Assembly: GCF_054482595.1 (NCBI RefSeq)
Contig: NZ_CM137008.1
DNA length: 64,000 bases
Direction: 5' to 3' (one strand)
Shown: piece after piece, positions 20,750 to 54,072 of the stretch
How the letters are laid out: each line of letters opens with the position of its first letter
Position numbering within the stretch: the first letter of the stretch is position 1
Program-made: the position numbers and the translations under genes
The notes under the pieces: model-generated
Told to the model about the DNA's origin: nothing
The model's input: only the letters and a program-made list of their open reading frames with translations
The model's database searches: none

Positions 20750-20922
20750 AAAGTTCTTTGACGTTGCATTGCTGGCGTAAATGTCAGCAATGCAGCATTT
20801 CCTCACGATTCTCCTTTGACGATCGCACTTTTTGCTCGTTATGATGGCGTCGCTAGCCTCAGTAAATCCTTACTCCGGCGGTGCGCAACCCGTGCGCGTG
20901 AACCACTATCTGAATGCTCATC

Positions 20923-40151: not shown

Positions 40152-41240
40152 TCACGGCAGGCGGTGGCGGGCTTGATAATAAGCCTGCCAGTGAGCTTCT
40201 TTATGTGTGGCGACACGCTGTTCGAAGTAACGGCGCAGACGAGCGCGATCTTCTTCGTTATCTTTGACGATGGTTCCGGCAATGCAGTCCACCAGATCGG
40301 CTGGCTCACCTGCGCGATTCGCTAAAAACCAGGCGCGGACGCCCACGGCGTGGGCCACGTTCACGGCTTCAGCGGTGGACATAATCGCTGTTAGTGTATC
40401 CATTGACGTTTTCTTTTCGCCGTTGGCACGCAGATCGCGGAAGGTGCGGACCAGTAACTCCAGTACCGCGTCAGGCACTTTATGCGGAATACCGCTATGG
40501 GCCAGCAAACGCGCCGAAGCACTGGCGACAAGCTCCAGCTCCTGGGCGAAATCCATAATCGGAAAGACAGTTTCAAAATCGAAGCGACGCTTTAGCGCAG
40601 CACTCATTTCATTGACGCCGCGATCGCGGGTATTGGCAGTGGCAATAATATTAAAGCCTTCTCGCGCATAGAGCTGACTGGCTTCACCAGTGAGTTCCGG
40701 CACCGTCATCACCCTGTCAGAAAGCATACCTAACAGACAGTCTTGCACTTCCAGCGGTGTACGCGTTATCTCTTCAAAACGGACGATTTTGCCGTCGCGC
40801 ATTCCCTGGTAAAGCGGGGCAGGGACCAGCGCTTCCGTTGATGGACCATGATTGATAAGCAGGGCGTAGTTCCAGCCGTACTTGATTTGATCTTCGGTAG
40901 TAGATGCGCCGCCCTGGATGGTTAACCCGGCATCGCCGCTAATAGCGGTTACCAGTAATTCAGACAGGAGAGATTTTGCGGTGCCAGGTTCCCCCACCAA
41001 CATCAAACCGCGTCCGGTGGCAAGAGTGACTAACATACGTTCGACAGCGGAGGGACTAATCACCACTTTACGGCTAATATTTTGCGCGCTATCGCCAAGG
41101 ATAAAAGCACGGGCCGCAGGCAAACTTAACTGCCAACCGGGCGGGCAAGGTGCGTTATCATTTTGTTTTAATTTTGCCAGTTCATCGGCGTATAACACAG
41201 CAGCAGGCGGACGCTGCAGATGATTATTCTGCGGTGACAT
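40152..41240 (-). CDS. yehL: MoxR-like AAA+ ATPase
   Basis: ATG at 41240 (MSPQNNHLQRPP…, 362 aa); Walker A GEPGTAKS, sensor-1-like ATANT read directly. Confidence 0.85.
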   Translation of the reverse strand: MSPQNNHLQRPPAAVLYADELAKLKQNDNAPCPPGWQLSLPAARAFILGDSAQNISRKVVISPSAVERMLVTLATGRGLMLVGEPGTAKSLLSELLVTAISGDAGLTIQGGASTTEDQIKYGWNYALLINHGPSTEALVPAPLYQGMRDGKIVRFEEITRTPLEVQDCLLGMLSDRVMTVPELTGEASQLYAREGFNIIATANTRDRGVNEMSAALKRRFDFETVFPIMDFAQELELVASASARLLAHSGIPHKVPDAVLELLVRTFRDLRANGEKKTSMDTLTAIMSTAEAVNVAHAVGVRAWFLANRAGEPADLVDCIAGTIVKDNEEDRARLRRYFEQRVATHKEAHWQAYYQARHRLP

Positions 41241-41351
41241 ATATTCATCCCTGAAATGTATTAATGAAATAAACGATATTTTACGCGCAATAAATGTTTG
41301 GCTCATTAGTTGTTTGAGCGAAAAATATCTGGAAAGCAGATCACAGTAAAT

Positions 41352-41434
41352 AAAAAAACCTGCTGGTGAGGCAGGTTCTTTTATTTACTATTTTCAGGCC
41401 TAACACCACAGCCTGTGCAACATCGTGTTCCAAC
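41352..41434 (-). ncRNA. orzO: Antisense sRNA antitoxin of the first zor toxin copy (OrzO/OrzP type)
   Basis: Minus-strand sigma70 promoter (-35 TTGCAA 41469..41464, 17-nt spacer, -10 TATAAT 41446..41441); terminator hairpin cctgctggtgaggcagg (41359-41375) followed by U7 on minus strand; 5' 19 nt complementary to the toxin leader. O versus P copy assignment is from memory and uncertain. Confidence 0.55.
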
Positions 41435-41440
41435 GAACGA

Positions 41441-41491
41441 ATTATAACCACGGCTGGACCCCGTTGCAATTAAGATAATGAGATTTATAAT
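41441..41491. promoter_or_regulatory. Back-to-back divergent promoters of sRNA and toxin mRNA sharing one palindromic -35 hexamer
   Basis: Plus strand: -35 TTGCAA 41464-41469, 16-nt spacer, -10 TATAAT 41486-41491; minus strand uses the same TTGCAA with -10 TATAAT at 41446..41441. Confidence 0.5.
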
Positions 41492-41672
41492 CCAGACCGT
41501 TGGGACGTTGCGCCGGATCGAACCTATTTCAAGTCCTGGCTACCGGACGGGTGGTGCTTCAGGTGGTGCCCTGAGCCGGAGTGCAACATCGTGGTCCAAC
41601 ATACGTAAACCAGTATTGACAGGCAGTGTAAGGGTAAGGTGCTGGTGTTGCGCTCCTTAATAAGGAGAGCGG

Positions 41673-41762
41673 ATGGACTCGCTGACACAAAAGTTAACCG
41701 TGCTCATTGCTGTACTGGAGCTATTAGTAGCTCTGTTACGGTTGATTGATTTGTTGAAGTAA
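41673..41762 (+). CDS. zorO: Type I toxin, 29 aa (MDSLTQKLTVLIAVLELLVALLRLIDLLK), ZorO/ZorP family
   Basis: Not in ORF track; AAGGAG Shine-Dalgarno 5 nt upstream; ~175-nt leader from predicted TSS; sequence recognised as Zor toxin. Which copy is zorO and which zorP is not certain. Confidence 0.8.
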   Translation: MDSLTQKLTVLIAVLELLVALLRLIDLLK

Positions 41763-41784
41763 CGGGCAAATTGAAACGCATCTA

Positions 41785-41812
41785 AGGGGGAAAACCGCTT
41801 CCCCCTTTAATA
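41785..41812 (+). terminator. Rho-independent terminator of first zor toxin gene
   Basis: gggggaaaaccgcttccccc hairpin followed by TTTAATAAAAT. Confidence 0.6.
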
Positions 41813-41961
41813 AAATGATTACTGTTTTTATTAATTCATCATATAACTCATTTTTATTTATAAATTCATCGATTTTATATTCAACGCACCATTTGACCGG
41901 GATGTGAATATTTATGGTGGGCTATTGGCAAAAAATATCTGGAAAGTAGATCGCAGAAAAT

Positions 41962-42042
41962 AAAAAAACCTGCTGGTGAGGCAGGTTCTTTTATTTACTA
42001 CAGTGACGCTAACTTGCTGATTGTGCAACATTTCGTACCAAC
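41962..42042 (-). ncRNA. orzP: Antisense sRNA antitoxin of the second zor toxin copy
   Basis: Same architecture as copy 1: -10 TATAAT at 42054..42049, -35 TTGCAA 42076..42071, terminator hairpin 41969-41985 with U-run; 5' 18 nt complementary to cognate leader (42190-42207). Confidence 0.55.
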
Positions 42043-42048
42043 GAATAA

Positions 42049-42099
42049 ATTATAACCATATCCACACTCCATTGCAATTCAGTGAGTGAGATTTATAAT
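42049..42099. promoter_or_regulatory. Second copy of the divergent sRNA/toxin promoter pair with shared palindromic -35
   Basis: TTGCAA 42071-42076 flanked by TATAAT on plus strand (42094-42099) and on minus strand (42054..42049). Confidence 0.5.
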
Positions 42100-42280
42100 C
42101 CTGCCCGTTGGGAGGTTGTGCCGGATCGGACCAATTTTAAGTCCTGGCTGCCGGACGGGTGGTGCCGCAGGCGGTGCCCTGATCCGGAGAGCAACGTTTC
42201 GTACCAACATACGTAAACCAGTATCGACAGGCAGTGTAAGGGTAAGGTGCTGGTGTTGCGCTCCTTAATAAGGAGAGCGG

Positions 42281-42370
42281 ATGGACACGCTGACACAAAA
42301 GTTAACCGTGCTCATTGCCGTACTGGAGTTATTAGTGGCTCTGTTACGGTTGATTGATTTGTTGAAGTAA
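42281..42370 (+). CDS. zorP: Type I toxin, 29 aa (MDTLTQKLTVLIAVLELLVALLRLIDLLK), ZorO/ZorP family
   Basis: Not in ORF track; second tandem copy 608 bp downstream of the first; differs by Ser3Thr; AAGGAG SD present. Confidence 0.8.
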   Translation: MDTLTQKLTVLIAVLELLVALLRLIDLLK

Positions 42371-42393
42371 CGGGCAAATTGAAACGCATCTAA

Positions 42394-42418
42394 GGGGGAA
42401 TACCGTTCCCCCCTTTAA
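42394..42418 (+). terminator. Rho-independent terminator of second zor toxin gene
   Basis: gggggaataccgttcccccc hairpin followed by TTTAAG. Confidence 0.55.
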
Positions 42419-42479
42419 GAAAGCTATACTCGTCATACTTCAAGTTGCATGTGCTGCGACTTTAATTATCTAGAGTATA

Positions 42480-42797
42480 TTATTCTATTTCTTGGTTGAA
42501 TATATTCTGTAGTTTACGATTAAAAATTGCTATTACAGTTTCAGGTGATTCACCTCGTAATTTCCGCTCATCAATACACTCATCTCTTATATAAATCAAC
42601 GCATCATTTATTAGCGGGTCAGCATCTTCTCGATCACGTTGATGAAATGTTGAACGTAGCCGGAATCGCTCCAGTCGATAGACGGAACCTGTAAATAATT
42701 CAGAGCATTTATGGATCTCAAGTCTGAAGGAAAACGGATCTTCAGGTACAGGGACCTCATAATCGTAAATAGCAACCAGCTCTTTTTGCACGATCAT
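42480..42797 (-). CDS. yehK: Small protein of unknown function
   Basis: 105-aa ORF 61 nt downstream of yehI on the same strand; recognised as YehK. Confidence 0.75.
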   Translation of the reverse strand: MIVQKELVAIYDYEVPVPEDPFSFRLEIHKCSELFTGSVYRLERFRLRSTFHQRDREDADPLINDALIYIRDECIDERKLRGESPETVIAIFNRKLQNIFNQEIE

Positions 42798-42858: not shown

Positions 42859-45800
42859 TTAATGGAAAATGACGTCAGGTGCGCTTAACGCCTCACTCAA
42901 ATTAAACACATCAAGTTCGGCAAAAGTGACGGATTTATTGTCACGGTACACTCGAAGAGAACGGAAGCTCATTAACGCTTTGCTATCAACATTGTAGTGG
43001 TTAAAACCGGGTGAAAACTTAAGGACCAGCCGGTACTCGCCCAGGTCATAGACAAATGCATCCTCATAGCCTGACTCCCAGCCTTTGTATCGCATTCCCA
43101 TAAGCTGCCCAACGGTAGCGGATTTACCTTCCCAGCGAGTCAGGCTGTTACTGGTTGACTCGTCAGGTGTGAGCAGCACCGTGCGCCGCGCCAACTGGCG
43201 AAAAGGCGGCATAATTTCGTAATCGGCAAAAAGCTGTGCAAATTCACTGCGCATTTCTACTGTCATTTCTAACGGGTGGGCAATGCCAATCAGAGCGTCC
43301 GCAGGCAGGTCAATTGGCTCATCTTGCGCATTGCAGAACTCCCCCTCTGCGGCCACACGAAAGGCGTTGAGTAAACAACGCGGTTCATTTGCCGGATAAG
43401 CCCCCCATATTAATCGCTGGGTAACCAGACGGGTAAAGGGATGATTAACAAACAGAGAATGAAAATCTGCCAGCGACCAGCGTCGGGTGGTACGTAGGGC
43501 CGTTTCAAGACGCGGGAGCAGGTTTTTGCTCACCTGAGTAGCATCTTTTTTTAGCCCTTTTAGTCGGGCCAGTGCCTCGGGCGCTTTCAGTTGATCGTCA
43601 TCGGCACGCAACCGGGGAACACTTTTCTGGCGAACGTTTTGTTGATCAAAGATAACCGGGTTGAGGTTTTCATCGAAGCGAACGGTAAACTGCCGGGGAC
43701 CAAAATCAAAAATCAACGCCTGCGGATCATCAAGACCTAGTGTTGGGACTAATCTGTCCGCTAACTCTTCCTGGCTTAGCCCGCGATTTTCTGCGACCAC
43801 CTGAAGAAATTCCGCTGCGTTTTCACGTAATGAAGAGGATTTCGCCCGTTGTGATACATGATGCAGCTGTATCAGCGCCATATCATTATTCATCAAGGTA
43901 AGTATATTCAGACCAATGACAGCACGGGCAGATTTGCCTTCTTGTGGCCAGGCGAGGATCTGTGTCGTCAGATCCCGAGCCGTGCTTTCGTCACCAAAGA
44001 GACTTAACGCCAGAAATGCCCAGTTGTCTTTTGCGGGGGCACCAGCTTGTTGCCACGCAGTGAAGAGATCCCAGGCAAAAGCGGCCAGCGTTTGTGGCTG
44101 GCAAAACGTTTTCAGTTGTTCCAGACCGCTATAAAAACGTCCGCCCTGGGTAAAGCGCAGCATTTCGCCGATAATTTCCAGAGCGTCATCGGTAACAGGC
44201 TGATTATTAGTGATAAGTCGCGGCCTGGACCACATTGCCGGATGCCAGAAATCAGGGGCTTTTGGAATGCGTGCCGGGTAAATGTCCATTGGACCCTGTT
44301 TCAGTAAATGCTCCAGGGCAGGCCATACATCTGTACGCTGCCAGCGGTTTGCCACGGTTTGCAGCAATTCACCATGTCCCTGTTCGTAAAGTAAACGCAG
44401 GGCAAGTAATGCAGCTTCGCTATTATCGCTGGATTTGGTGAAGACAAGAGGGATAAGTGCAGTAGCCGTATGTTCCGGCCAATGTAAAATCCACTGGCGA
44501 GCCAGATCACGCTGCACCGCGAAACGTCGCCAGACGCGGGCAACGGGCAGGGCCAGTTCTGTTGCGCCAAAATTTAAAATTAACGGAAATGTTTCTTTTG
44601 GACGATGTAAAAAAGCCAACATCAGACCTGGTAGCGCATCCAACCCGAGGATACTGAGAAAATAGTCCTCACCCGCGAACAGATGTTTTTTCTCATTGAT
44701 ACGCAGCCAGAAGGTCAAAGCCATCTCACGCGGCAACTGTGCCAATAAATACAGGTTCCAGACACTCTTTTCCGGACGATAACGTGAGTAGTTGTCATTT
44801 TCCCATATGTTAATTAACGCTTCTATGTGACCGCTGCGGAGCGCCTGTTCTGCTAATTGTGCTTCCGGGGAGTTCCAGCCATTCAGGATCTCTTCAACCC
44901 GCCCCTGGTAGTAATGCCACTGAACAATGAGTGAATTGCGTGCAGCATCCAGTTTTCCGGGGAGTATATAATTCAGAAACAGCCATACATCATCCCCAAA
45001 ACCCAGTTCCTGTAATACAACTCGCCCACTTTTTTGTTCCATGCGTTCCGCAAGAGATTCCGTGCTGAAATAACGGGCAGACTCAGTGGAGGCAAGCCAC
45101 TCTTGTTCGCCTGGTTGCCAGTAAACTTGCGGGGTTAATTCGAGCGGTGCCAAATCAAGACGTGGAGCTGTCATTTTTTTCTTACTACGCCACGGTGGTG
45201 AAACGAGGATTTCAGGCAGATTGCTGTTATCGGTGCCATCAATAACCGGTTTGGGCGGTGCCAATAAATAACTATTCAGTACTGCCCGGGCTTGAGTACT
45301 TAACCACTGCATCACCTCTTCTGCCAGTTGTGGCTGCGATGCCATCAGCGTTTGTAACAGCGTACGCCAGTATTCATCGCGTGCTTTTTGCTGGGCAGGC
45401 AGCTTTTTGTCTTCGATGATTGGATAACCAAGGCGGGCTGGTGGTTCTTTTAACGCCAGCAGTTCTGCCAGTGCCGCGAGCGTCGCGTGGGGGAAGTTTT
45501 TACTGTATTTAGCCACACGTTGCAGGCTGGGTTTGTTTTTATCAGCCACCAGTAGCAAGGTGTGGATGACCTGCGGATGGTTAATTTGTACCAACAGACT
45601 GCCGCAATCTTCTTTATGGGCATACATCGCGAGGCGCGGAATGGCTGCCAGTCCTTGTTCGCGCAAAAGGGCGGCGCAGGCCGCGTAGCCGAAGTGGTTT
45701 TTTTGTGACATGTAGCTGGCTTCGCGATCGCTAAATACGTCCAGGCCCCAGTATCGTTCGAGTTTTTTTACCGCCGTATTATCAGTAGCAACGACCTTTA

Positions 45801-46491
45801 ACCACTCCTTTGAATGGAGACTTGACCGGGAGCTTTCAAGACTGGCGAGTTCATTGGCTATTTCAGGCTTTTCCGGGAGGATCAGCGCAATAAAAGGACG
45901 GCGAATTTTGGGTATTCCTGGCAGTGCGGCAATGAGTTTATCGGCACAACGCTGCCAGCAACTTTCCTCTGCCAGCGACAGATGCTTACGCAAACGGAGA
46001 TCGAAATCGTTATAGGTCGCGGAGCCATAACCGTAGCCATAGTCCTCGTCCTGATACTGCAAAGTGACGACCAGTGAATCACTCTCATAACGCCGCGCAA
46101 TGCACTGACGCGCCATCACTACATCCGTCGCATATTCCAGCCCCTCTTGTTGGACGATTTCGTCGAGCAACTGTTGGCTGTCATTTTGCGCGATACAGGC
46201 TAGCGCCGCCATTGTCCGGGCCGGGATTGAGGGTTTGTGTTCGCCGATCAAGTTGATGGCCTGCGTGATGGCGGACTGCCACTCCAGTGAAAAATTTTCA
46301 TAACGCCAGACAATGTTTTTTTTCTTCTCAGCTTTTTGTAGCAATTCATCACCCAGTGTCTGAATGATGCTTTCAGTGATAACAGGCACTGGTTCGCCCG
46401 GCCAATTGCGATGGCTGAGTGGTGTTTTACCCTTTTTATATTTCAGTTCCAGTTGGGCGTTATCAGCCAGCCACGGTAATTCCTTGTCCAT
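42859..46491 (-). CDS. yehI: Giant DUF4132-family protein (1210 aa), paralog of MolR without the N-terminal WGR domain
   Basis: C-terminal ~450 aa strongly similar to the two upstream paralogs (e.g. AWDLFTAW…GAPAK…NWAF; LADYE…PPFRQL); recognised as YehI. Confidence 0.9.
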   Translation of the reverse strand: MDKELPWLADNAQLELKYKKGKTPLSHRNWPGEPVPVITESIIQTLGDELLQKAEKKKNIVWRYENFSLEWQSAITQAINLIGEHKPSIPARTMAALACIAQNDSQQLLDEIVQQEGLEYATDVVMARQCIARRYESDSLVVTLQYQDEDYGYGYGSATYNDFDLRLRKHLSLAEESCWQRCADKLIAALPGIPKIRRPFIALILPEKPEIANELASLESSRSSLHSKEWLKVVATDNTAVKKLERYWGLDVFSDREASYMSQKNHFGYAACAALLREQGLAAIPRLAMYAHKEDCGSLLVQINHPQVIHTLLLVADKNKPSLQRVAKYSKNFPHATLAALAELLALKEPPARLGYPIIEDKKLPAQQKARDEYWRTLLQTLMASQPQLAEEVMQWLSTQARAVLNSYLLAPPKPVIDGTDNSNLPEILVSPPWRSKKKMTAPRLDLAPLELTPQVYWQPGEQEWLASTESARYFSTESLAERMEQKSGRVVLQELGFGDDVWLFLNYILPGKLDAARNSLIVQWHYYQGRVEEILNGWNSPEAQLAEQALRSGHIEALINIWENDNYSRYRPEKSVWNLYLLAQLPREMALTFWLRINEKKHLFAGEDYFLSILGLDALPGLMLAFLHRPKETFPLILNFGATELALPVARVWRRFAVQRDLARQWILHWPEHTATALIPLVFTKSSDNSEAALLALRLLYEQGHGELLQTVANRWQRTDVWPALEHLLKQGPMDIYPARIPKAPDFWHPAMWSRPRLITNNQPVTDDALEIIGEMLRFTQGGRFYSGLEQLKTFCQPQTLAAFAWDLFTAWQQAGAPAKDNWAFLALSLFGDESTARDLTTQILAWPQEGKSARAVIGLNILTLMNNDMALIQLHHVSQRAKSSSLRENAAEFLQVVAENRGLSQEELADRLVPTLGLDDPQALIFDFGPRQFTVRFDENLNPVIFDQQNVRQKSVPRLRADDDQLKAPEALARLKGLKKDATQVSKNLLPRLETALRTTRRWSLADFHSLFVNHPFTRLVTQRLIWGAYPANEPRCLLNAFRVAAEGEFCNAQDEPIDLPADALIGIAHPLEMTVEMRSEFAQLFADYEIMPPFRQLARRTVLLTPDESTSNSLTRWEGKSATVGQLMGMRYKGWESGYEDAFVYDLGEYRLVLKFSPGFNHYNVDSKALMSFRSLRVYRDNKSVTFAELDVFNLSEALSAPDVIFH

Positions 46492-46500
46492 GCTCTTTCC

Positions 46501-49500
46501 TTATTCAAACAGGGCTTCAATATCGTTAATTAGCTCGCTGGCGGTGATGGCATCGAGTACGGAGAGCTGCGCTTCCTGTGTTGAATTACTCCCCCAGCCA
46601 TAGCTTTCCGCTTTGCCTTCCCATAGCCACTGCTTGCTTAAGAGTTGCTCGGCACTCAGTTCGGCTGGCGACATGCCTACCGCAAAGCCTTCATCGATTT
46701 CCATGATTAACGACCAGCGGCCCAGAGGTTTGATCATCCAGCCGATCCAGCCTCCATCCTGTGGTTCGCCCTTTATCCAGCCTTTATTCGCCAGCCCCAT
46801 TACCCGACCGCTCGGGCATTTTCTGCCTGCCCAGCGGGTCAGTTCGCTGGCATTGCGCTCGGTTTCTGTCAGGGCGTAACTGTTACGGTCGAGCTGGCGG
46901 AACGGCGGTAGCAGTTCGTAGTCGGCAAAAAGCTGCCCAAATGCGGCGGCATCCGTCGGTGATATTTCCAGAACGTGAGGAATACCAACAGAGATATCGC
47001 CTTCCGGCAGGGTGAAAAGATCATCGTCAGCGGTGCTGTAGCTGTTATCTTCCGCTACCCGGAAACAGGCCAGTAGCTGGTTTTCGGCGCTATAAACGCC
47101 CCAAATCAGACGGCGGGTTAAGTGGCGAACTAGCGGATGCTCAACCAGGAAGAGCTGAAAGTTATCCGGTGACCAGCGGCGACGCAGGCACATGGCGGAT
47201 TCCAGCCTTGCTACCTGCTGGGCGGCGACGGTACGCGCATCTTTTTTCAGCAGTTTGTAGCGGTTAACAGCATCGTTCGCCTGTGATTCATCATCGCTTT
47301 TGTTTGGTTTGGGCAGGTCTTTCAGACGGCTGCCAGAAACATCACGCACAAACGGTTTTAAGGTTTCATCAAAGCTGACGGTGAACTGGCGTGAGCCGAA
47401 ATCCAGCAGCAACGAACCGTTATCATCCAGACCGAGATCCGGTGCTAACCGATCTTCAAGCTCTGCCACCGTGAGTTCGCGGCTTTCGGCAATGTCGGCA
47501 ATTTTTTCTTTTGCCCGCTCCTGTAATGCTTTGAATTTCAGTTTCTGGGCAATACCGTTAAGCTGCATCAGGGCGATATCACTACCGATAGCGGCGAGAA
47601 TATCCAACCCAACGGTGGCGCGTTTATGCTGGGATTCACCAGGCCAGGCGCGTATTAATGGCGTCAGTTTGCGGGCGGTGTCATCGTTACCAAGAACGCC
47701 TAACGCAGTGAACGCCCAACTCTCTTTCGACGGTGCGCCCGCAGTCAGCCAGGCGGTAAACAGATCCCAGGCAAATTCAGCCAGTGAGTCGGCGGTACAG
47801 GCATCTTTCACCTGCAATAATCCCGGATACAGGGCCTCTTCCTGAGGGAAGCGGAGCATTTCACCGAGGTGCTGGAGTGCGCTATCTGGCAGTGATTGGG
47901 CGTTTGTATTTAATACCGGGCGCGTCCAGAGCGATGGCTGATAAAAGGCCGGAAGAGTGGGGATTTTTGTCGGGTGATTATCTAAGGGATCGAGCGCAAG
48001 CAGAGCGTTCACCGCGTCGGTTACTTCCGGCTGGTTATAACGCCGGGCGATTTCTTGCAGTAATGGCTGATGACCGTTTTCGGTAAGCATACGTAAGGCA
48101 GCGCGAGCGTTATCTTGTGCTTCACCGGCTTTGCCGAGCGCCGAAGGCAGCAGGCCGGTTATGGCGTGTTCCGGGTATTTTAGCAGCCAGCTACGGGCGT
48201 CTTGTCGTAGGGTTTTGAGTTTGTTGAAGGCGCGGGCAATGAATGGAGCCAATTCGACAGCCGCGAAATATTGTGCCACGGGAAGAGCTTCCTGCGGATA
48301 GCGAGATGCTGAGTGGATAAAACCTGTTAAACCAGCAAGTCGAAGATGCAACATTACTTGTTTTTCACCTGTATGTGGTTCTTTACTAAGGATATTCCAC
48401 ATCTCAATAGCTTTATTTATGGGTAAAACATGGAGTGAAGAAAGCTTCCATTCGCCCTGATAAGGGGCGTTATAGGACTTAAAAGCATCGATCAAAGTTA
48501 AATAATCTTCACGCTGCCAAGCATCCAACGCTATTTCTGGAATATCAATATAGCCTCTATGTTTGTTCCAATCCCAGCGGTCGAATCCCAGGGAATTCAG
48601 AAAACCTTTTTCTCCCTCTGCTTGCTGACGAGGTTGCCAATTATGCTGCACTTGTAGTCTTTTGCTTTTTGTTTCATTTATTGTACAGAAAGATTCCAGG
48701 GGTAATGGTGCTAAATCCAGCACTGGAGTCGGCGATTTTTTCTTTTTAGCCTGCCACGGCGGTGAGACTAATACGGCAGGCAGCATATCGGCGTTCGCAT
48801 AAACTGAAGGTTGTGTCAGTTGTTGCTGGCATGACTTAAGAACGGTAACTGTCGGGGCAGATAGCCAGGAGATCACCCGTTCTACTAATGTTGGTTGTGA
48901 GATAAGCATCGTCATTAGCATCATGCGCCAGCGCTTTTCATCTTTTTGTGCCAGAAGTTCTGCTAATGCCGCCAGCGCTGCATGTGGAAAGCGAACGAAA
49001 GCCTTTGTCATGCGATCGTGGCAACGCTTTCCCTGCTCACTTGCATGGATAAGTAGTGTAAGTGCTTGCGGGTGGTTGATATGCATCAACACTTCCCCAC
49101 ATGTGTCACCAGCAGCGTAAGGGGCAAAACGGGCCAACGCAGCGACACCTTGCTCCTTGAGTACTGTCGCACACCAGATTTTACCGCCGTAATAATCATC
49201 AAATACCTGCCCTGGCTGTCCTGGATAGTATTTCCCCAGTTCTGCCAATACCTGCTCGTCGGTGGTCGTCAGTTTTAGCCATTCCAGCGCATATACCCCT
49301 TTTTGTCCGCAAAGATGTCTGGCAATCTCATGAGCTACTTCTGGTTTTTCCGGCAACAATAGTGCGACCAGCGGCTGGTTCCAGGCGGGCATGTTTCCGA
49401 GAGCGGCAATCAGTTTGTCGGCGCAGCGCTGCCATACATCGTCATTTGCAAGTGAGAGATGCTTACGCAGGCGCATTTCAACCGAAGCGAAGCGTGACAG

Positions 49501-50259
49501 ATAGTCAGGCTGCTTGTTATCCGGGGTAAAAGTAATGAGGTGGGCATCATAATTCCAGTCAAATCGGATGAATTGCAATGCGATGACAACCTCAGTGGCA
49601 TATTCCAGACCACCTTCCTGGACAATTTGATCCATTAACTCTTCGTGATCGTTACGATTGAAGCCTTGCTCCAGCGCAACCAGTACCGCCAGAACCATCG
49701 GTAGTAGTGTGGTGCTAATCGGCGAGTCGATAAGGCCCACTGCTTGTGTAATCGCCTGCTGCCAGTCCAGTGAACAGGTGCTGTAATCGAAGGTGATCAC
49801 CTTTTTAAAACGCCGGTGAGTATTCGCGGAGACGGAGCGTAGCAGGGTTAATTCATTCTCCTTTGGCACAGGATCGCCAGGCCAGCGTCGATGACTTAGT
49901 GTGGTTGGCGCAACCTCTGTCGGTAAAATGATTTGGGCGTCGTCTGCCAGCCAGGGGAGGTGGTCTCCAGTCAATGCTGGTTTGTCTTGTGGCAAAGGGG
50001 CTATTTCAGGGCATTCGATAACCTGGGTGGGTACAGATGTCGGTGTCATCACGGATACTTCTTCTACGTAGCCCTTTTTTGTTTTCTCCGCAATCAGCTT
50101 CAGTTCCGCTTTTTCCGCCGCCGCAGCATCTGCAAAGCTTTTTACCTGACTTTGCCCGTTAGTGCCGACTTTACCCCAGGTTATATGCAGCTCGTTTCTC
50201 TGCTGCTCCACCGCCCAGAATTTATGTGATTTTTCGTCCTGATAAATATAGGTTTTCAT
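46501..50259 (-). CDS. molR: MolR-like giant protein (1252 aa): N-terminal WGR domain + C-terminal DUF4132
   Basis: N-terminus MKTYIYQDEKSHKFWAVEQQRNELHITWGKVGTNGQ… is a WGR domain; intact reading frame; 9 nt upstream of yehI. Which of the two copies corresponds to K-12 molR/yehH is unresolved. Confidence 0.85.
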   Translation of the reverse strand: MKTYIYQDEKSHKFWAVEQQRNELHITWGKVGTNGQSQVKSFADAAAAEKAELKLIAEKTKKGYVEEVSVMTPTSVPTQVIECPEIAPLPQDKPALTGDHLPWLADDAQIILPTEVAPTTLSHRRWPGDPVPKENELTLLRSVSANTHRRFKKVITFDYSTCSLDWQQAITQAVGLIDSPISTTLLPMVLAVLVALEQGFNRNDHEELMDQIVQEGGLEYATEVVIALQFIRFDWNYDAHLITFTPDNKQPDYLSRFASVEMRLRKHLSLANDDVWQRCADKLIAALGNMPAWNQPLVALLLPEKPEVAHEIARHLCGQKGVYALEWLKLTTTDEQVLAELGKYYPGQPGQVFDDYYGGKIWCATVLKEQGVAALARFAPYAAGDTCGEVLMHINHPQALTLLIHASEQGKRCHDRMTKAFVRFPHAALAALAELLAQKDEKRWRMMLMTMLISQPTLVERVISWLSAPTVTVLKSCQQQLTQPSVYANADMLPAVLVSPPWQAKKKKSPTPVLDLAPLPLESFCTINETKSKRLQVQHNWQPRQQAEGEKGFLNSLGFDRWDWNKHRGYIDIPEIALDAWQREDYLTLIDAFKSYNAPYQGEWKLSSLHVLPINKAIEMWNILSKEPHTGEKQVMLHLRLAGLTGFIHSASRYPQEALPVAQYFAAVELAPFIARAFNKLKTLRQDARSWLLKYPEHAITGLLPSALGKAGEAQDNARAALRMLTENGHQPLLQEIARRYNQPEVTDAVNALLALDPLDNHPTKIPTLPAFYQPSLWTRPVLNTNAQSLPDSALQHLGEMLRFPQEEALYPGLLQVKDACTADSLAEFAWDLFTAWLTAGAPSKESWAFTALGVLGNDDTARKLTPLIRAWPGESQHKRATVGLDILAAIGSDIALMQLNGIAQKLKFKALQERAKEKIADIAESRELTVAELEDRLAPDLGLDDNGSLLLDFGSRQFTVSFDETLKPFVRDVSGSRLKDLPKPNKSDDESQANDAVNRYKLLKKDARTVAAQQVARLESAMCLRRRWSPDNFQLFLVEHPLVRHLTRRLIWGVYSAENQLLACFRVAEDNSYSTADDDLFTLPEGDISVGIPHVLEISPTDAAAFGQLFADYELLPPFRQLDRNSYALTETERNASELTRWAGRKCPSGRVMGLANKGWIKGEPQDGGWIGWMIKPLGRWSLIMEIDEGFAVGMSPAELSAEQLLSKQWLWEGKAESYGWGSNSTQEAQLSVLDAITASELINDIEALFE

Positions 50260-50271
50260 TGTTAAATCCTT

Positions 50272-53200
50272 TTAATCAAACAGTGATTCAATGTCGTTAA
50301 TCAGCTCGCTGGCGGTGATGTCGTCGAGCATGGAGAAAGTGGGTGAGGATTGTTTACCATAGCGATCATAAGGGGCGGTGATTTTTACGCTTTCGACAGG
50401 CAGCAGGTCGCTATACCCCGTTTCGCCATAAATTAATGAAAAAGGTTCTGTTTCAAGTTCGAGAGCACCATAAGGGGTAGATTTGCGCATCGCATAGACG
50501 CTGCCGCTTTCTTCCAGACGTTGCCAGCCTCTGCGTTCCAGCCCGACAATGCGTCCGGCCTGGCAGAGACGTCCGTTCCAGCGTGACAATTCATGGACAT
50601 TACGTTCGTTATCAGCAAGGTGGTAACTACCACGTTCGAGCTGTTGGAAAGGGGGAAGCAGTTCGTAATCAACGTAAATTTGCCTGAATGCAGCGGCGGA
50701 TTCAGGGGGGATTTCCAGCACATGCGGTATACCGATGTTTCCTGCTGGCAGCGTGAATAACTCATCCTGCGCATCGCTGTAAGTGCTGTCTTCTGCCACG
50801 CGAAAACAGGTGATAAGAGCGTTTTCATCGTTATAAACCCCCCATAACAGCCGTCGGGTTAAGTGACGTACCAGCGGATGCTCCACCAGAAACAGGCGGA
50901 ACTGCTCTGCCGTCCAGCGTCTGCGCTGGCACATAGCCTGTTCCAGACGGGTAATTTGCTGGCTGGCGATAGCACGAACATCTTTTTTCAACTGTTTGAA
51001 GAGATTAACTGCGTCAGTTGCCAGTGTTTTATCATCGCTCTGGTTTGGCTTAGGTAAATCTTTCAGGACTTTGCCGTTTGCATCGCACACTACAGGTTTT
51101 AAGGTTTCGTCAAAACCAACGGTGAATTTGCGGGGGCCGAAATCCAGTATCAGCGAGCCACTGCTATCAAGCCCTAAATCCGGTGCCAGGCGATCTTCCA
51201 GTTCGGCCATTGTCAGTCCGCGATTTTCGGCGACCATATTGATTCTGTCGCTGGCATTTTCCTGTAATGCAACGAATTTAATCTTTTGCGCAATGCCATT
51301 AAGCAACATAAGCGCAATGTCGCTACCGATACTGGCTAACACATCCAGCCCGTAAACCGCGCGTTTATGCTGGGATTCACCCGGCCAGGCGCGGATGAGC
51401 GGGGTTAGTTTACGCGCGGTGTCGTCATTGCCTAGAATCCCCAGCGAGGTAAATGCCCAGTTCTCTTTTGCGGGTGCGCCTGCTTCTGTCCATGCCGTGT
51501 AGAGATCCCAGCCAAAGTCAGCCAGTGATTCGCGGGTGAAGGTCTCTTTGATGATCGCCAGCCCAGCGTAGGAGGTAATGTCGCGTGGAAAGCTCAACAT
51601 TGTGCCGAGGTGGCGCATAGCGTCATCTGGCAGAGGCAGGTTGTTACTTTTAAGCCGAGGTCTGCGCCATAAGGTGAACTGATAAAAGCCGGGCAGTGGG
51701 GCGATTTTTGCAGGATATTCTTCCAGTGGGGCGCTATCAAATAATGTTGCCAGCGCAGATAAAACATCAGGTTGATTATATCCTTGGGCGATTTCCTCAA
51801 TCGTTTCTCGCTGGTTTAATTTCACTAGCAGGAGGAGTGCCTGGCGGGCATATTCCCGATTTTGGCACGGTTTGCCCAGCGCCAAAGGCAGTAGCCCGGC
51901 GGCGGCATGGCGCGGGTTATTTGCCAGCCAATTAACGGCATCCTTGTAAGCTATTTTTTTCTGTAACCGCTGCGCCATTGGTAAGGCTAGTTCACTGGCT
52001 CCAATAAAAAGGGTGAATATCCACAGGCGTTGATGATCTCGTTGCAAGCAGGTCATAAACGCAGGAATGGCCGTACTACCAAAAACCGCCAGAATCTCTT
52101 TCTCACCTGAATATCGCTCCTCAATGATTATTTGGTTGAGAAATGAAATCGCCTGTTGTCCCGGTAAGTAACAAAGCGCAGATAGATTCCAGCTTTTGTT
52201 GGCATTGTTGTGATATTTCGCAAACTCAGCTTTTAGTGCTGGAAAATCAAAGCGCAACAAGGCATCAACAGCGCTTTGCGGTATATATTTTTTTTCATGT
52301 AAGTCATTTTCGCAATGCAGCCATTCATTAAAACCTAATTGCCAAAGGATTTGTTGTTCTGGTGTAAAAGGAATGAAAGATGTCTCCCAGCTTTCTTTTT
52401 CAATTAGTGGCAGAACGGTAAATAAGGTTTGCTGTGATGCCTGATATTGCGCAATTTCACTGAATCTGGATATGTCAGTATGACTGATTAACTCTGTAAT
52501 TCCTGGTGTGATATCCGTGACGGCAGGAATGGGAAGTACCGGTAAATCAAATACGGGTATGACATTCTTTTTCTTATTTATTACCCACGGTGGAGCGACA
52601 AGCAGCTCCGGCAACATATCCACAGTGGCATATTCACATTCTTCAGCTACTGGCAGCGGACGACATTCAGATAAGATGCCTGCCGCCTTAGCATTAACCC
52701 AGGGAATGACCTCGCATACTAACTCTGGCGTGGCGGTAATCAGTTTGACAAGCGCTTTACGCCACTCATTATTTTCATGTATTGCCAGCAAAGTAGCATA
52801 AGCGGCAATAGCCGCAGCGGGATGTTTTTGGCAGGCTTTGCTTAAGTATTCCAGGTGCTTTTTCTTGCCATTTACACCGAGGATCAGAATTTGAATCGCA
52901 TCCGGGTGATTCGTTTTCCATAGCCATTTGACAAGATCTTCAGCATTGGCGTGTATGTGAGTGAAAAGGTCCGTGTATTTTACGGGATAGTCGACAGGTA
53001 GCTTGAGAAGAATCCGGCTTACACCACGCATTCCATTATTTGCCAGCAACGTAGCCAGATATTTGCGGAAATCATTATATAGCGGTGGGAAACCATATTT
53101 TTCCTGGATGGCCAGGGCAACATCATCGCTTACCATCATACTTAACCAGGTCATCGCCGGAACGTTTTGGTCTGCATAACGTAGCGCCATAGCATTGGCA

Positions 53201-54072
53201 ATATCCGGGCATTCGGGGAGCAGTAACGCCGCAAAAGGTTGCCGTGCTGGGGATAGCGTCGGAATGGCGGCGAGTACTTTATCTACACAGCGTTGCCACT
53301 CATCTTCTGAAGCGAGTGAAAGATGATGACATAGACGTTGATGCCAACTCGGCAGCGATTCTGCTTTGTGATTAGGTGGAATGATGGTGGTTACTGCGCC
53401 TTTTACTGGTTTATATCTAAGTTGAAGAGCGAGAAGGGCAATTTCAACGGCACTTTCCAGACCACAGCGAATGACTAAGTCATCGACCAGTTCATCTGCA
53501 GAGTAAGAGTTCCAGAAACTCCAGAGCAATGCTGCATCAGATTGTGCACTCCCTGTCTGTTGATTACCCTGAACTCGCATTTGTAACTCAGCAAAAGCCT
53601 GCTGCCAGTTTTCTGGATAAGAACGGTAATTGTTGGCGGGATCATATGCCCTGGTGTTATTCGCGATGAGCTGCCATATTTGACCATCTTTGTGCAGATA
53701 ATTGATCTCTCTGGGGCGAGAGCGATGAGGAAAAGCAAATCGATTAATATCGTCAGTTAGCCGAATGACCGCATCATCAGCCAGCCAGGGGCGTTGGTTT
53801 TTACTCTCAGGGGAAGTTTCAACTTCAGGAGTGGCTTTGGTAATGGGGGGGATATGCACGTTTGCTGAAGCATTTTCCACATAGCCTTTTTTCGTTTTCT
53901 CTGCGATCAGCTTAAGCTCCGCTTTTGCCGCTGCCGCAGCATCCGCAAAACTTTTTATCTGGCTTTGCCCGTTAGTGCCGACTTTGCCCCAGTTGATATG
54001 CAGCTCGTTTCCCTGCTGCTCAACCGCCCAGAATTTATGTGATTTTTCGTCCTGATAGATAAAGTGTCTCAT
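50272..54072 (-). CDS. Second MolR-like giant protein (1266 aa): N-terminal WGR domain + C-terminal DUF4132
   Basis: N-terminus MRHFIYQDEKSHKFWAVEQQGNELHINWGKVGTNGQ… nearly identical to downstream paralog; 12 nt upstream of it. Confidence 0.85.
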   Translation of the reverse strand: MRHFIYQDEKSHKFWAVEQQGNELHINWGKVGTNGQSQIKSFADAAAAAKAELKLIAEKTKKGYVENASANVHIPPITKATPEVETSPESKNQRPWLADDAVIRLTDDINRFAFPHRSRPREINYLHKDGQIWQLIANNTRAYDPANNYRSYPENWQQAFAELQMRVQGNQQTGSAQSDAALLWSFWNSYSADELVDDLVIRCGLESAVEIALLALQLRYKPVKGAVTTIIPPNHKAESLPSWHQRLCHHLSLASEDEWQRCVDKVLAAIPTLSPARQPFAALLLPECPDIANAMALRYADQNVPAMTWLSMMVSDDVALAIQEKYGFPPLYNDFRKYLATLLANNGMRGVSRILLKLPVDYPVKYTDLFTHIHANAEDLVKWLWKTNHPDAIQILILGVNGKKKHLEYLSKACQKHPAAAIAAYATLLAIHENNEWRKALVKLITATPELVCEVIPWVNAKAAGILSECRPLPVAEECEYATVDMLPELLVAPPWVINKKKNVIPVFDLPVLPIPAVTDITPGITELISHTDISRFSEIAQYQASQQTLFTVLPLIEKESWETSFIPFTPEQQILWQLGFNEWLHCENDLHEKKYIPQSAVDALLRFDFPALKAEFAKYHNNANKSWNLSALCYLPGQQAISFLNQIIIEERYSGEKEILAVFGSTAIPAFMTCLQRDHQRLWIFTLFIGASELALPMAQRLQKKIAYKDAVNWLANNPRHAAAGLLPLALGKPCQNREYARQALLLLVKLNQRETIEEIAQGYNQPDVLSALATLFDSAPLEEYPAKIAPLPGFYQFTLWRRPRLKSNNLPLPDDAMRHLGTMLSFPRDITSYAGLAIIKETFTRESLADFGWDLYTAWTEAGAPAKENWAFTSLGILGNDDTARKLTPLIRAWPGESQHKRAVYGLDVLASIGSDIALMLLNGIAQKIKFVALQENASDRINMVAENRGLTMAELEDRLAPDLGLDSSGSLILDFGPRKFTVGFDETLKPVVCDANGKVLKDLPKPNQSDDKTLATDAVNLFKQLKKDVRAIASQQITRLEQAMCQRRRWTAEQFRLFLVEHPLVRHLTRRLLWGVYNDENALITCFRVAEDSTYSDAQDELFTLPAGNIGIPHVLEIPPESAAAFRQIYVDYELLPPFQQLERGSYHLADNERNVHELSRWNGRLCQAGRIVGLERRGWQRLEESGSVYAMRKSTPYGALELETEPFSLIYGETGYSDLLPVESVKITAPYDRYGKQSSPTFSMLDDITASELINDIESLFD

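What the first reader, a model, noticed from the sequence alone, without database searches (positions are those of the whole stretch)
41320..42420. Tandem type I toxin-antitoxin locus (zorO/orzO and zorP/orzP) invisible to the ORF track
Two ~490-bp units repeat with a 608-610 bp period. Each contains a 29-codon ORF (MD[ST]LTQKLTVLIAVLELLVALLRLIDLLK) with AAGGAG SD and its own terminator, and a divergent minus-strand sRNA with promoter and terminator. The peptides match the Zor toxins described in EHEC. The track shows only 60-aa ORFs over the toxin leaders. The locus sits between yehL and yehK, interrupting the otherwise continuous minus-strand block, as if inserted. This marks the strain as non-K-12.
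Basis: partly seen in the sequence, partly recalled or inferred. Interest (0 to 1): 0.75.

Follow-up and report, generated by a model that had tools for sequence, protein, structure and literature searches.

The report
Known zorP/orzP–zorO/orzO toxin–antitoxin pair
This stretch is the already well-studied duplicated zor-orz type I toxin-antitoxin locus of natural E. coli: two tiny membrane-toxin genes, each held in check by a small RNA made from the opposite strand. It is intact here and ordinary.

Summary

- **Repeat:** two ~495-bp units (41318-41813 and 41928-42420) repeat with a 608-610 bp period.
- **Toxin genes:** each unit has a 29-codon ORF. The unit-2 peptide is letter-for-letter the published ZorO. 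The unit-1 peptide is ZorP (T3S).
- **Antitoxin RNAs:** each unit has a divergent minus-strand sRNA that hits Rfam RF02083 (OrzO-P) at 99.9 and 88.8 bits (gathering score 60).
- **Published features:** all that could be checked are intact: TTGCAA/TATAAT promoters, 174-nt 5' UTR, SD in a hairpin, and the sRNA 5' end complementary to +83..+102 of its own mRNA. The V1 triplets are ACG (OrzP) and GAA (OrzO).
- **Specificity:** cognate pairing is 6(1)13 and 18 contiguous. Cross-pairing gives runs of only 8-9. Compensatory changes occur at 5 of 20 pairs across four natural variant types.

- Left to right the order is zorP/orzP, then zorO/orzO.
- K-12 is not an empty site. It is a deletion remnant that keeps orzP, so "as if inserted" is not supported.
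- The same tandem locus sits between yehL and yehK in Escherichia whittamii.
- About a third of complete E. coli genomes carry the tandem form.

Novelty: already known. Interest is low.

The parts
41352..41434 (-). orzP: 83-nt antitoxin sRNA with 5' end GUUGGAAC-ACG-AUGUUGCAC and a terminator stem-loop at its 3' end
   Evidence: Rfam RF02083 at 99.9 bits over 41352-41427. The 5' end at 41434 is inferred from two things: the -10 position and the published V1 numbering (+9..+11 = ACG; PMC3919570). The fold shows a 12-bp terminator stem. The sequence is identical to the K-12 orzP remnant.
41441..41491 (.). Divergent promoter block of unit 1: orzP -10 (41446..41441, minus strand), one palindromic TTGCAA (41464-41469) that serves as the -35 for both promoters, and zorP -10 TATAAT (41486-41491, plus strand)
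   Evidence: Promoter scan gives 10/12 matches on both strands, with spacers of 17 nt and 16 nt. The same hexamers are reported as 99-100% conserved in PMC11264685.
41499..41672 (+). zorP 5' UTR (174 nt). It includes the OrzP target at 41581-41600 (+83..+102) and the anti-SD/SD hairpin at 41653-41667.
   Evidence: The TSS is inferred from the published 174-nt UTR (PMC5397157) and from -10 spacing. Pairing is 6(1)13 with OrzP. The SD hairpin appears in the MFE structure.
41673..41762 (+). zorP coding sequence, 29 aa: MDSLTQKLTVLIAVLELLVALLRLIDLLK
   Evidence: ORF list. The T3S variant is named ZorP in PMC11264685. There are no differences from O157:H7 Z570 within the CDS.
41784..41807 (+). zorP 3' hairpin, the likely terminator, with a weak U-tract
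   Evidence: Folds at -14.6 kcal/mol. The simple terminator scan did not call it.
41814..41927 (.). Unique AT-rich spacer between the two units
   Evidence: It has no counterpart after unit 2 in the gapped alignment. A query spanning this junction is covered at 80% or more in 1816 of 5426 complete E. coli genomes.
41962..42042 (-). orzO: 81-nt antitoxin sRNA with 5' end GUUGGUAC-GAA-AUGUUGCAC
   Evidence: Rfam RF02083 at 88.8 bits over 41962-42035. V1 = GAA at +9..+11 as published. Fold.
42049..42099 (.). Divergent promoter block of unit 2: orzO -10 (42054..42049, minus strand), shared palindromic -35 TTGCAA (42072-42077), and zorO -10 (42094-42099, plus strand)
   Evidence: Promoter scan.
42107..42280 (+). 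zorO 5' UTR (174 nt). It includes the EAP region +73..+102 (42179-42208), the OrzO target at 42189-42208, and the anti-SD/SD hairpin at 42261-42275.
   Evidence: Pairing is 18 contiguous pairs, one of them G-U. In the MFE structure +1..+22 pair with +73..+102 and the SD sits in a 6-bp hairpin. The predicted unpaired probability of the EAP region rises from 0.33 to 0.50 after removal of 28 nt. Published probing is in PMC5397157.
42281..42370 (+). zorO coding sequence, 29 aa: MDTLTQKLTVLIAVLELLVALLRLIDLLK
   Evidence: ORF list. It matches exactly the ZorO peptide sequence printed in PMC6669753.
42392..42415 (+). zorO 3' hairpin, the likely terminator
   Evidence: Folds at -13.0 kcal/mol. Its position fits the published ~310-nt full-length transcript.

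Best explanation
The region is the chromosomal zor-orz type I toxin-antitoxin locus in its two-copy form: zorP/orzP next to yehL and zorO/orzO next to yehK.

How it works, step by step:
1. In each unit a near-consensus promoter drives a ~310-nt mRNA with a 174-nt 5' UTR.
2. The Shine-Dalgarno sequence sits in a local hairpin, and the first ~28 nt of the mRNA pair with +73..+102. The primary transcript is therefore poorly translated.
3. Removal of those 28 nt exposes this 'EAP' region, which is thought to act as a ribosome standby site. The 29-aa ZorO or ZorP helix is then made.
4. When overproduced, the peptide inserts in the inner membrane, depolarises it, depletes ATP and stops growth.
5. 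From a divergent promoter that shares the same palindromic -35 hexamer, an ~81-83-nt Orz sRNA is made.
6. The first 18-20 nt of the sRNA pair with +83..+102 of the cognate mRNA only. This blocks translation and triggers RNase III-dependent decay.
7. Nucleotides 5-11 of the sRNA, including V1, and the matching mRNA positions differ between the two units. This keeps the two pairs insulated from each other.

Shown here on this sequence: all the sequence elements, their geometry, cognate versus cross complementarity, and covariation. Taken from experiments on O157:H7 EDL933, not from this strain: toxicity, rescue by the sRNA, RNase III dependence, processing and structure probing. The window's zorO unit is identical to O157:H7 strain Z570 except for one indel before orzO (41930) and one base in the 3' hairpin (42408). 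Identity to EDL933 itself was not checked.
For: - Repeat structure and ORFs.
- Rfam RF02083 hits at 99.9 and 88.8 bits against a gathering score of 60.
- Four promoter-like sites at exactly the expected positions.
- The ZorO peptide is identical to the published sequence, and ZorP is the T3S variant.
- V1 triplets ACG and GAA lie at +9..+11.
- The UTR is 174 nt in both units.
- Cognate pairing is 6(1)13 and 18 contiguous. This meets the published thresholds of at least 15 continuous or at least 17 discontinuous pairs. Cross pairs reach runs of only 8-9.
- Across four natural Orz/zor variant types from nine other genomes, 95% of cells are paired, against 26-40% when the register is slid. Five of 20 pairs carry compensatory double changes.
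- The locus is 99.2% identical to O157:H7 Z570 in the same yehL-yehK context.
- The same locus and context occur in three other Escherichia species-level genomes.
- Experimental mechanism: PMC2887945, PMC3919570, PMC5397157, PMC6669753 and PMC9860968.
Against: - Nothing in the sequence contradicts the explanation.
- There are no expression data for this strain.
- The zorP 5' UTR differs from O157:H7 Z570 at four transcribed positions (41552, 41559, 41575, 41617). For zorP the thermodynamic prediction does not reproduce the opening of the EAP region after removal of 28 nt (0.36 to 0.31).
- Whole-UTR folding energy is not significantly below that of shuffles (z = -1.49).
- The zor 3' hairpins lack a strong U-tract.
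- The natural role of the locus is unresolved in the literature. Proposals include growth control, carbon-source response and aminoglycoside tolerance. A single chromosomal zorO-orzO copy put into MG1655 gave no kanamycin phenotype.
Confidence: 0.95

Rival explanations
1. The real genes are the 60-aa ORFs over the leaders (41478..41660 and 42086..42268), and the 29-codon ORFs are incidental.
For: The ORFs exist. The frame stays open in 14 of the 15 units sampled from nine genomes.
Against: - Their start codons lie 21 nt upstream of the inferred mRNA start sites (41499 and 42107), so they are not in the transcript.
- No Shine-Dalgarno sequence precedes them (read).
- They give no NCBIfam hit.
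- Differences between units are mostly amino-acid-changing, and one unit is frameshifted.
- The region is a GC-rich structured UTR whose function is established experimentally.
- The 29-aa peptide has been detected (FLAG-tagged, expressed from its native promoter on pBR322) and is toxic when overproduced.
Confidence: 0.01
2. The locus is a recently inserted mobile or foreign element that split a yehI-yehK-yehL-M-P-Q operon, and K-12 shows the ancestral empty site.
For: It is the only plus-strand coding unit in a long minus-strand block. K-12 has a 0.3-kb gap at this site, against 1.2 kb here.
Against: - K-12 retains a complete orzP, the zor promoter and about 29 nt of the zor UTR, and then jumps to window 42461. 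That is a deletion scar, not an empty site (PMC11264685).
- No inverted repeat brackets a repeat unit. The only pair that flanks the locus is weak (27 nt, 78%; I1, 41239-41265 with 42479-42505), and there is no large ORF between yehL and yehK that could encode a transposase.
- The same tandem P-then-O arrangement lies between yehL and yehK in Escherichia whittamii, and single copies lie there in two cryptic-clade Escherichia genomes.
Confidence: 0.04
3. The locus is intact but does not work mainly as a toxin-antitoxin module. On this reading the Orz sRNAs, OrzP especially, or the zor mRNA have another regulatory role, and toxicity is an overexpression artefact.
For: - About 30% of E. coli genomes keep orzP without any toxin gene, and it is still expressed in MG1655. 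My K-12 alignment shows orzP conserved base for base.
- A non-toxic ZorO R23L variant still improves growth in kanamycin.
- A single chromosomal copy gave no phenotype.
Against: - Covariation between the Orz 5' ends and the zor targets shows selection on the toxin-antitoxin RNA interaction itself.
- The peptide is almost invariant across Escherichia species.
- Rescue of toxicity by the cognate sRNA has been shown experimentally.
- No other Orz target has been reported.
Confidence: 0.15

Closest known systems
zorO-orzO / zorP-orzP of E. coli O157:H7 EDL933 (z3289/z3290; Rfam RF02083 OrzO-P)
   Same: The locus matches on every point tested.
- The ZorO and ZorP peptides are identical.
- The sRNA 5' ends and V1 triplets are identical.
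- The target sites, the 174-nt UTRs, the promoters and the SD hairpin are the same.
- The yehL-yehK position and the P-then-O order are the same.
- Overall identity to an O157:H7 chromosome is 99.2%.
   Different: There are ten single-base or indel differences from O157:H7 strain Z570. Four lie in the zorP 5' UTR (41552, 41559, 41575, 41617), two lie between the zorP -10 and its TSS, and one lies in the zorO 3' hairpin. None lies in a coding sequence, an sRNA 5' end or a target site.
tisB-istR1 (E. coli)
   Same: - The sRNA gene is divergent and not antisense.
- Complementarity is about 20 nt, between the sRNA 5' end and a site far upstream of the RBS in a long 5' UTR.
- The primary transcript is inactive and is activated by 5' processing.
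- A standby-site logic is proposed, and RNase III cleaves the duplex (PMC3919570 and PMC5397157).
   Different: The peptide and RNA sequences are unrelated. tisB is controlled by LexA and the SOS response. No LexA-box-like site lies at either zor promoter: the single 1-mismatch hit in the locus, at 41988-42003, is at chance level.
shoB-ohsC (E. coli)
   Same: The gene organisation is divergent, pairing runs through the sRNA 5' end, and the toxin is small and hydrophobic.
   Different: The sequences are unrelated. It is a single-copy locus present in K-12.
dinQ-agrB
   Same: [quoted passage not shown]
   Different: The toxin ORF and the sRNAs are different. I did not test the relationship here.

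Membership tests
Zor-Orz type I toxin-antitoxin family (ZorO/ZorP toxins, OrzO/OrzP sRNAs) | A 29-aa hydrophobic peptide matching ZorO (MDTLTQKLTVLIAVLELLVALLRLIDLLK) or its T3S variant ZorP | tested here: met
   The ORFs at 42281..42370 and 41673..41762 are an exact match to the sequence printed in PMC6669753. The T3S variant is defined as ZorP in PMC11264685. The residues D2, K7, E16, R23, D26 and K29, and the ALLRL motif at 20-24 studied in PMC9860968 and PMC6669753, are all present.
Zor-Orz type I toxin-antitoxin family | An sRNA matching the Rfam covariance model RF02083 (OrzO-P) above its gathering score | tested here: met
   99.9 and 88.8 bits against a gathering score of 60. Both are full-length model matches on the minus strand.
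Zor-Orz type I toxin-antitoxin family | The sRNA gene is divergent from the toxin gene, does not overlap it, and has its own promoter and terminator | tested here: met
   The inferred orz and zor start sites are 65 bp apart on opposite strands. There is a -35/-10 pair for each and a 12-bp terminator stem with a U-run.
Zor-Orz type I toxin-antitoxin family | The sRNA 5' end is complementary to the toxin 5' UTR inside +73..+102, with at least 15 continuous pairs or at least 17 discontinuous pairs with one mismatch | tested here: met
   OrzO with zorO gives 18 contiguous pairs, one of them G-U. OrzP with zorP gives 6(1)13, which is 19 pairs. Both pair at +83..+102. The thresholds come from PMC3919570 and PMC11264685.
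Zor-Orz type I toxin-antitoxin family | V1 specificity triplet at +9..+11: GAA in OrzO and ACG in OrzP, with poor cross-pairing | tested here: met
   Both triplets are present. Cross pairs reach maximum runs of only 8-9.
Zor-Orz type I toxin-antitoxin family | A 174-nt 5' UTR with the RBS in a stem and the 5' end occluding the EAP region | tested here: met
   The UTR length is 174 in both units. The SD hairpin is predicted in both full-length UTRs (it is lost in the zorP delta-28 MFE). Pairing of the 5' end with the EAP region is predicted for zorO. For zorP the predicted opening of the EAP region is not reproduced, so that sub-point is inconclusive for unit 1.
Zor-Orz type I toxin-antitoxin family | Chromosomal position in the yehK-yehL intergenic region of Escherichia or Shigella | tested here: met
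   The flanking ORFs are 99% identical to the annotated YehL and YehK. The context is the same in every sampled genome.
Zor-Orz type I toxin-antitoxin family | The peptide is toxic on overproduction, and the cognate sRNA rescues in a partly RNase III-dependent way | not testable with these tools
   Shown experimentally for the EDL933 alleles (PMC2887945, PMC3919570, PMC5397157). The peptides and pairing regions here have the published sequences and are identical to O157:H7 strain Z570.
Zor-Orz type I toxin-antitoxin family | Both RNAs are expressed in the strain carrying the locus | not testable with these tools
   No expression data are available for this sequence. The promoters are identical to the consensus reported as 99-100% conserved.
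tisB-istR family | A LexA (SOS) box controls the toxin promoter, and the toxin is TisB-like | tested here: not met
   No LexA-box-like site lies at either zor promoter. The peptide is unrelated to TisB. The locus works like tisB-istR in its RNA logic but is not a member of that family.

The most novel reading that the evidence does not exclude
In each unit a single palindromic TTGCAA hexamer is the -35 element of both the toxin and the antitoxin promoter, 16 nt from the zor -10 and 17 nt from the orz -10. RNA polymerase bound for one direction should therefore exclude binding for the other. This would make toxin and antitoxin transcription mutually exclusive on any one DNA copy, a built-in transcriptional toggle on top of the known RNA-level control.

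A second point goes with it. The mRNA's own 5' end (GUUGGGAGGUUGUGCC) resembles the Orz 5' end and pairs with the same EAP site. The antitoxin may therefore have arisen as a trans-acting copy of the cis-inhibitory leader.

Neither point is discussed in the papers I read. Both rest only on sequence geometry and predicted folding.
Probability: 0.2. Interest if true: 0.4.

Novelty: already known. Interest (0 to 1): 0.1.

Why it matters
For discovery it matters little. The locus was found in 2010, and its mechanism and population distribution have been published since.

It has practical value as a positive control for the scan. A reader working from raw sequence correctly recovered a two-gene RNA-regulated module. 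ORF callers with a 60-aa floor miss it. RefSeq leaves it unannotated in O157:H7 Z570 and lists no zor or orz feature in the other genomes sampled. NCBIfam has no model for the peptide.

The open biological question is what a chromosomal zor-orz pair does at native expression, and why orzP survives alone in about 30% of strains. This window does not advance that question.

Tried and rejected
1. **NCBIfam scan** of both 29-aa peptides, the 60-aa leader ORF and YehK found no family. It gave no independent protein-family support, so peptide identity rests on the literature sequence and DNA identity.
2. **The 60-aa leader ORFs as genes** were rejected. Their start codons lie upstream of the TSS, they have no SD and no family hit, and one unit is frameshifted.
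3. **SOS control like tisB** was rejected. No LexA box lies at the zor promoters.
4. **Simple terminator scan.** It flagged only the orz hairpins, read on the plus strand, and not the zor 3' hairpins. The "own terminator" of zor is therefore a hairpin with a weak U-tract. It is supported by the published transcript length rather than by the consensus scan.
5. **Thermodynamic folding.**
   - The whole-UTR z-score is not significant (-1.49).
   - Opening of the EAP region after removal of 28 nt is predicted for zorO but not for this strain's zorP.
   - I do not treat this as evidence against the mechanism, only as uninformative.
6. **RNAduplex energies on 30-nt sRNA fragments** separated cognate from cross pairs only modestly for OrzO (-32.9 vs -26.3 kcal/mol) because of spurious extended pairings. 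In-register run lengths were more informative.
7. **Weak sub-threshold Rfam hits in the locus** (Thr and Trp leaders, STnc370, isrH) are terminator-like or ERIC-like look-alikes well below their gathering scores.
8. **The genome contigs pattern scan** was exact-match only and found three non-coli Escherichia genomes. It cannot show absence elsewhere, for example in E. fergusonii, where Fozo 2010 reported the locus.
Full report

The repeat finder reports two direct-repeat families: a 300-nt family at 87% identity with spacing 608, and a 73-nt family at 95% identity with spacing 610. A gapped alignment joins them into two ~495-bp units, 41318-41813 and 41928-42420. A unique AT-rich spacer (41814-41927) separates the units.

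Each unit carries these elements:
- A 29-codon plus-strand ORF at 41673..41762 (MDS...) or 42281..42370 (MDT...).
- AAGGAG five bases before the ATG (read).
- A 3' GC hairpin, folding at -14.6 or -13.0 kcal/mol.

The flanking genes are yehL and yehK, with 360/362 and 104/105 residues identical to O157:H7 Z570. They lie inside a long minus-strand block.

**2. What is it?** It is the zor-orz type I toxin-antitoxin locus in its two-copy form.

- The Rfam OrzO-P model (RF02083) matches the minus strand at 41352-41427 (99.9 bits) and 41962-42035 (88.8 bits). The gathering score is 60. These and one unrelated Peptidase-S11 motif are the only gathering-level hits in the whole 64-kb window.
- The unit-2 peptide is identical to the ZorO sequence printed in PMC6669753. 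The unit-1 peptide is the T3S variant called ZorP in PMC11264685.
- The 1.23-kb locus is 100% identical to E. coli XH990 and 99.2% identical to O157:H7 Z570, where it occupies the same gap.
- The ten differences from Z570 avoid the coding sequences, the sRNA 5' ends and the target sites.

**3. Which unit is which?**

Wen et al. define a specificity triplet V1 at +9..+11 of the sRNA: GAA in OrzO and ACG in OrzP (PMC3919570). I placed the sRNA start seven bases after the -10 hexamer.
- The unit-1 sRNA then reads GUUGGAAC-ACG-..., which is OrzP.
- The unit-2 sRNA reads GUUGGUAC-GAA-..., which is OrzO.

So the window reads zorP/orzP and then zorO/orzO. Two further facts agree with this. The K-12 orphan, published as identical to OrzP, aligns to unit 1. 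The EDL933 gene numbering places z3289 (zorO) on the yehK side, which is an inference.

**4. Anatomy against the published mechanism.**

- *Promoters.* The scan finds exactly four sigma-70-like sites in 41200-42550, one for each zor gene and one for each orz gene. All are TTGCAA/TATAAT, as reported to be 99-100% conserved.
- *UTR length.* A 174-nt 5' UTR (PMC5397157) puts the transcription starts at 41499 and 42107, eight bases after each -10. Both units then have exactly 174 nt.
- *Target position.* The Orz targets fall at +83..+102, inside the published EAP region (+73..+102). They lie 73-92 nt before the start codon, against the published 72-92.
- *Predicted structure of zorO.* In the predicted full-length structure, +1..+22 pair with +73..+102 and the SD sits in a CUCCUU/AAGGAG hairpin. 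Deleting 28 nt raises the predicted accessibility of the EAP region from 0.33 to 0.50. This goes in the direction of the published probing.
- *Predicted structure of zorP.* For zorP in this strain the prediction does not show this opening. I treat that as uninformative.
- *Transcript length.* The published transcript sizes of about 310 and 280 nt fit an end just past the hairpin at 42415 and the 28-nt processing.

**5. Pairing specificity and covariation.**

In register, the pairs behave as follows:

| sRNA with mRNA | Pairing |
|---|---|
| OrzO with zorO (cognate) | 18 contiguous pairs, one of them G-U |
| OrzP with zorP (cognate) | 6(1)13 |
| OrzP with zorO, and OrzO with zorP (cross) | longest runs of 8 and 9 |

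Both cognate pairs exceed the experimentally derived thresholds of at least 15 continuous pairs, or at least 17 discontinuous pairs with one mismatch.

I extracted units from nine other E. coli genomes. They give four distinct sRNA/target types. On their alignment, 95% of cells are paired, against 26-40% when the register is slid. Five of 20 pairs show compensatory double changes, all within sRNA positions 5-11. This supports the RNA-RNA interaction independently of the literature, although only four distinct rows are available.

**6. Origin and distribution.**

- *K-12 is a deletion derivative.* K-12 aligns to window 41270-41511 (orzP, both promoters and the start of the UTR), then to 16 nt of UTR, and then jumps to 42461. 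This matches the "orz-only" class found in about 30% of genomes in PMC11264685.
- *Frequency.* A query across the unit junction is covered at 80% or more in 1816 of 5426 complete E. coli genomes. The whole locus is covered at 80% or more in 3389 genomes, a count that includes single-copy strains. The published figures are 42% with two copies, 25% with one, 30% orz-only and 3% with none.
- *Other species.* An exact-pattern scan of one genome per species found the locus in Escherichia whittamii as a tandem, in P-then-O order. It also found single copies in two cryptic-clade Escherichia genomes. All three lie between yehL and yehK.

The duplication and its position are therefore old. "As if inserted" does not describe the difference from K-12.

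**7. Rivals.**

- *The leader ORFs as genes.* Rejected, because their start codons precede the transcription start.
- *A mobile-element insertion.* Not supported. No inverted repeat brackets a repeat unit. The only pair flanking the locus is weak (27 nt, 78%), there is no large ORF in the gap that could encode a transposase, and there is a deletion scar in K-12 and conserved synteny in other species.
- *A non-toxin-antitoxin role.* A role for OrzP or for the zor mRNA beyond toxin control cannot be excluded, and the literature itself raises it. The covariation nevertheless shows selection on the toxin-antitoxin RNA pairing.

**8. Verdict.** The locus is a textbook member of a known family with every testable defining feature met. 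Novelty is "already known" and interest is low.

The only points I did not find discussed in the papers I read are the single palindromic -35 hexamer shared by both promoters of each unit and the resemblance of the mRNA 5' end to the sRNA 5' end. Both are geometric inferences, not findings.

Noticed in passing
41464-41469 and 42072-42077: One palindromic TTGCAA hexamer per unit is the -35 of both divergent promoters, 16 nt to the zor TATAAT and 17 nt to the orz TATAAT. Simultaneous RNA polymerase occupancy in both directions looks sterically impossible. I did not find this discussed in the zor-orz papers I read.
   Followed up: partly
42107-42128 vs 41962-42042 (also 41499-41520 vs 41352-41434): The zor mRNA 5' end (GUUGGGAGGUUGUGCC...) resembles the Orz 5' end (GUUGGUACGAAAUGUUGCAC). 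In the MFE fold it pairs with the same +73..+102 region. The leader therefore acts like a cis copy of the antitoxin.
   Followed up: partly
42421-42460: A short ERIC-like fragment (GCTATACTCGTCATACTTCAAGTTGCATGTGCTGCGAC) lies between the zorO hairpin and the yehK stop codon. Strain 536 has a full-length ERIC element, including GTAAGCTCCTGGGGATTCAC, at the same site (L003 2067-2180). The fragment probably explains the multi-copy matches per genome and a sub-threshold isrH Rfam hit.
   Followed up: partly
L002 4021-4330 (K-12 BW2952) vs window 41270-41511, 42120-42135 and 42461-42512: The K-12 remnant keeps the zor promoter intact with about 29 nt of UTR. That stub is now aimed antisense into the 3' end of yehK. 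A short TTTAA-like microhomology lies at the deletion junction.
   Followed up: partly
L003 (strain 536), L004, L005 and L009, first units: Peptide type and RNA type are uncoupled. Units with OrzP-type sRNA and target encode the ZorO (T3) peptide in many strains. The S3 'ZorP' peptide was seen only in this window and in O157:H7 among the genomes sampled.
   Followed up: partly
sRNA position 7, mRNA +96 (41594 in unit 1): An internal mismatch at sRNA position 7 is kept in three of the four natural pair types (P, Q-like and W224N-like). Only OrzO/zorO pairs there. The conserved bulge may be functional, for example for RNase III or for the kinetics of binding.
   Followed up: no
L012 (Escherichia whittamii), unit next to yehL: The P-position peptide there is MDTLTRKLTV... 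(Q6R). I did not see this variant named in the papers read. The unit next to yehK has a 175-nt UTR.
   Followed up: no
Hit H34, NZ_CP026085.1 'E. coli strain DH5alpha' (4.83 Mb): A record labelled DH5alpha carries the full tandem junction that true K-12 derivatives lack, and it is about 250 kb larger than K-12. It is probably a mislabelled or contaminated assembly.
   Followed up: no
L001 3992-5231 (O157:H7 Z570), and the feature listings for the other sampled genomes: RefSeq annotates no feature between yehL and yehK in O157:H7 Z570, and no zor or orz feature is listed in the other sampled genomes, even though Rfam RF02083 exists. NCBIfam has no model for the peptide. A few genomes carry a 'hypothetical protein' call under the match.
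   Followed up: partly
41478..41660 and 42086..42268: The 60-aa leader reading frame stays open in 14 of 15 sampled units, although its start codon is upstream of the TSS. This is probably a by-product of a GC-rich structured UTR.
   Followed up: yes
20838-20918 (+): An Rfam Peptidase-S11 RNA motif (RF03039, 72.8 bits) is the only other gathering-level RNA hit in the window.
   Followed up: no
42859..46491, 46501..50259 and 50272..54072 (all minus strand): Three tandem ORFs of ~1210-1266 aa lie here. The other Escherichia loci hold two further regions beside their yehI orthologue that match this window's YehI at 31-38% identity (a third partial match is 45% over 374 aa), so a paralogous DUF4132 gene trio probably sits next to the locus.
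   Followed up: no
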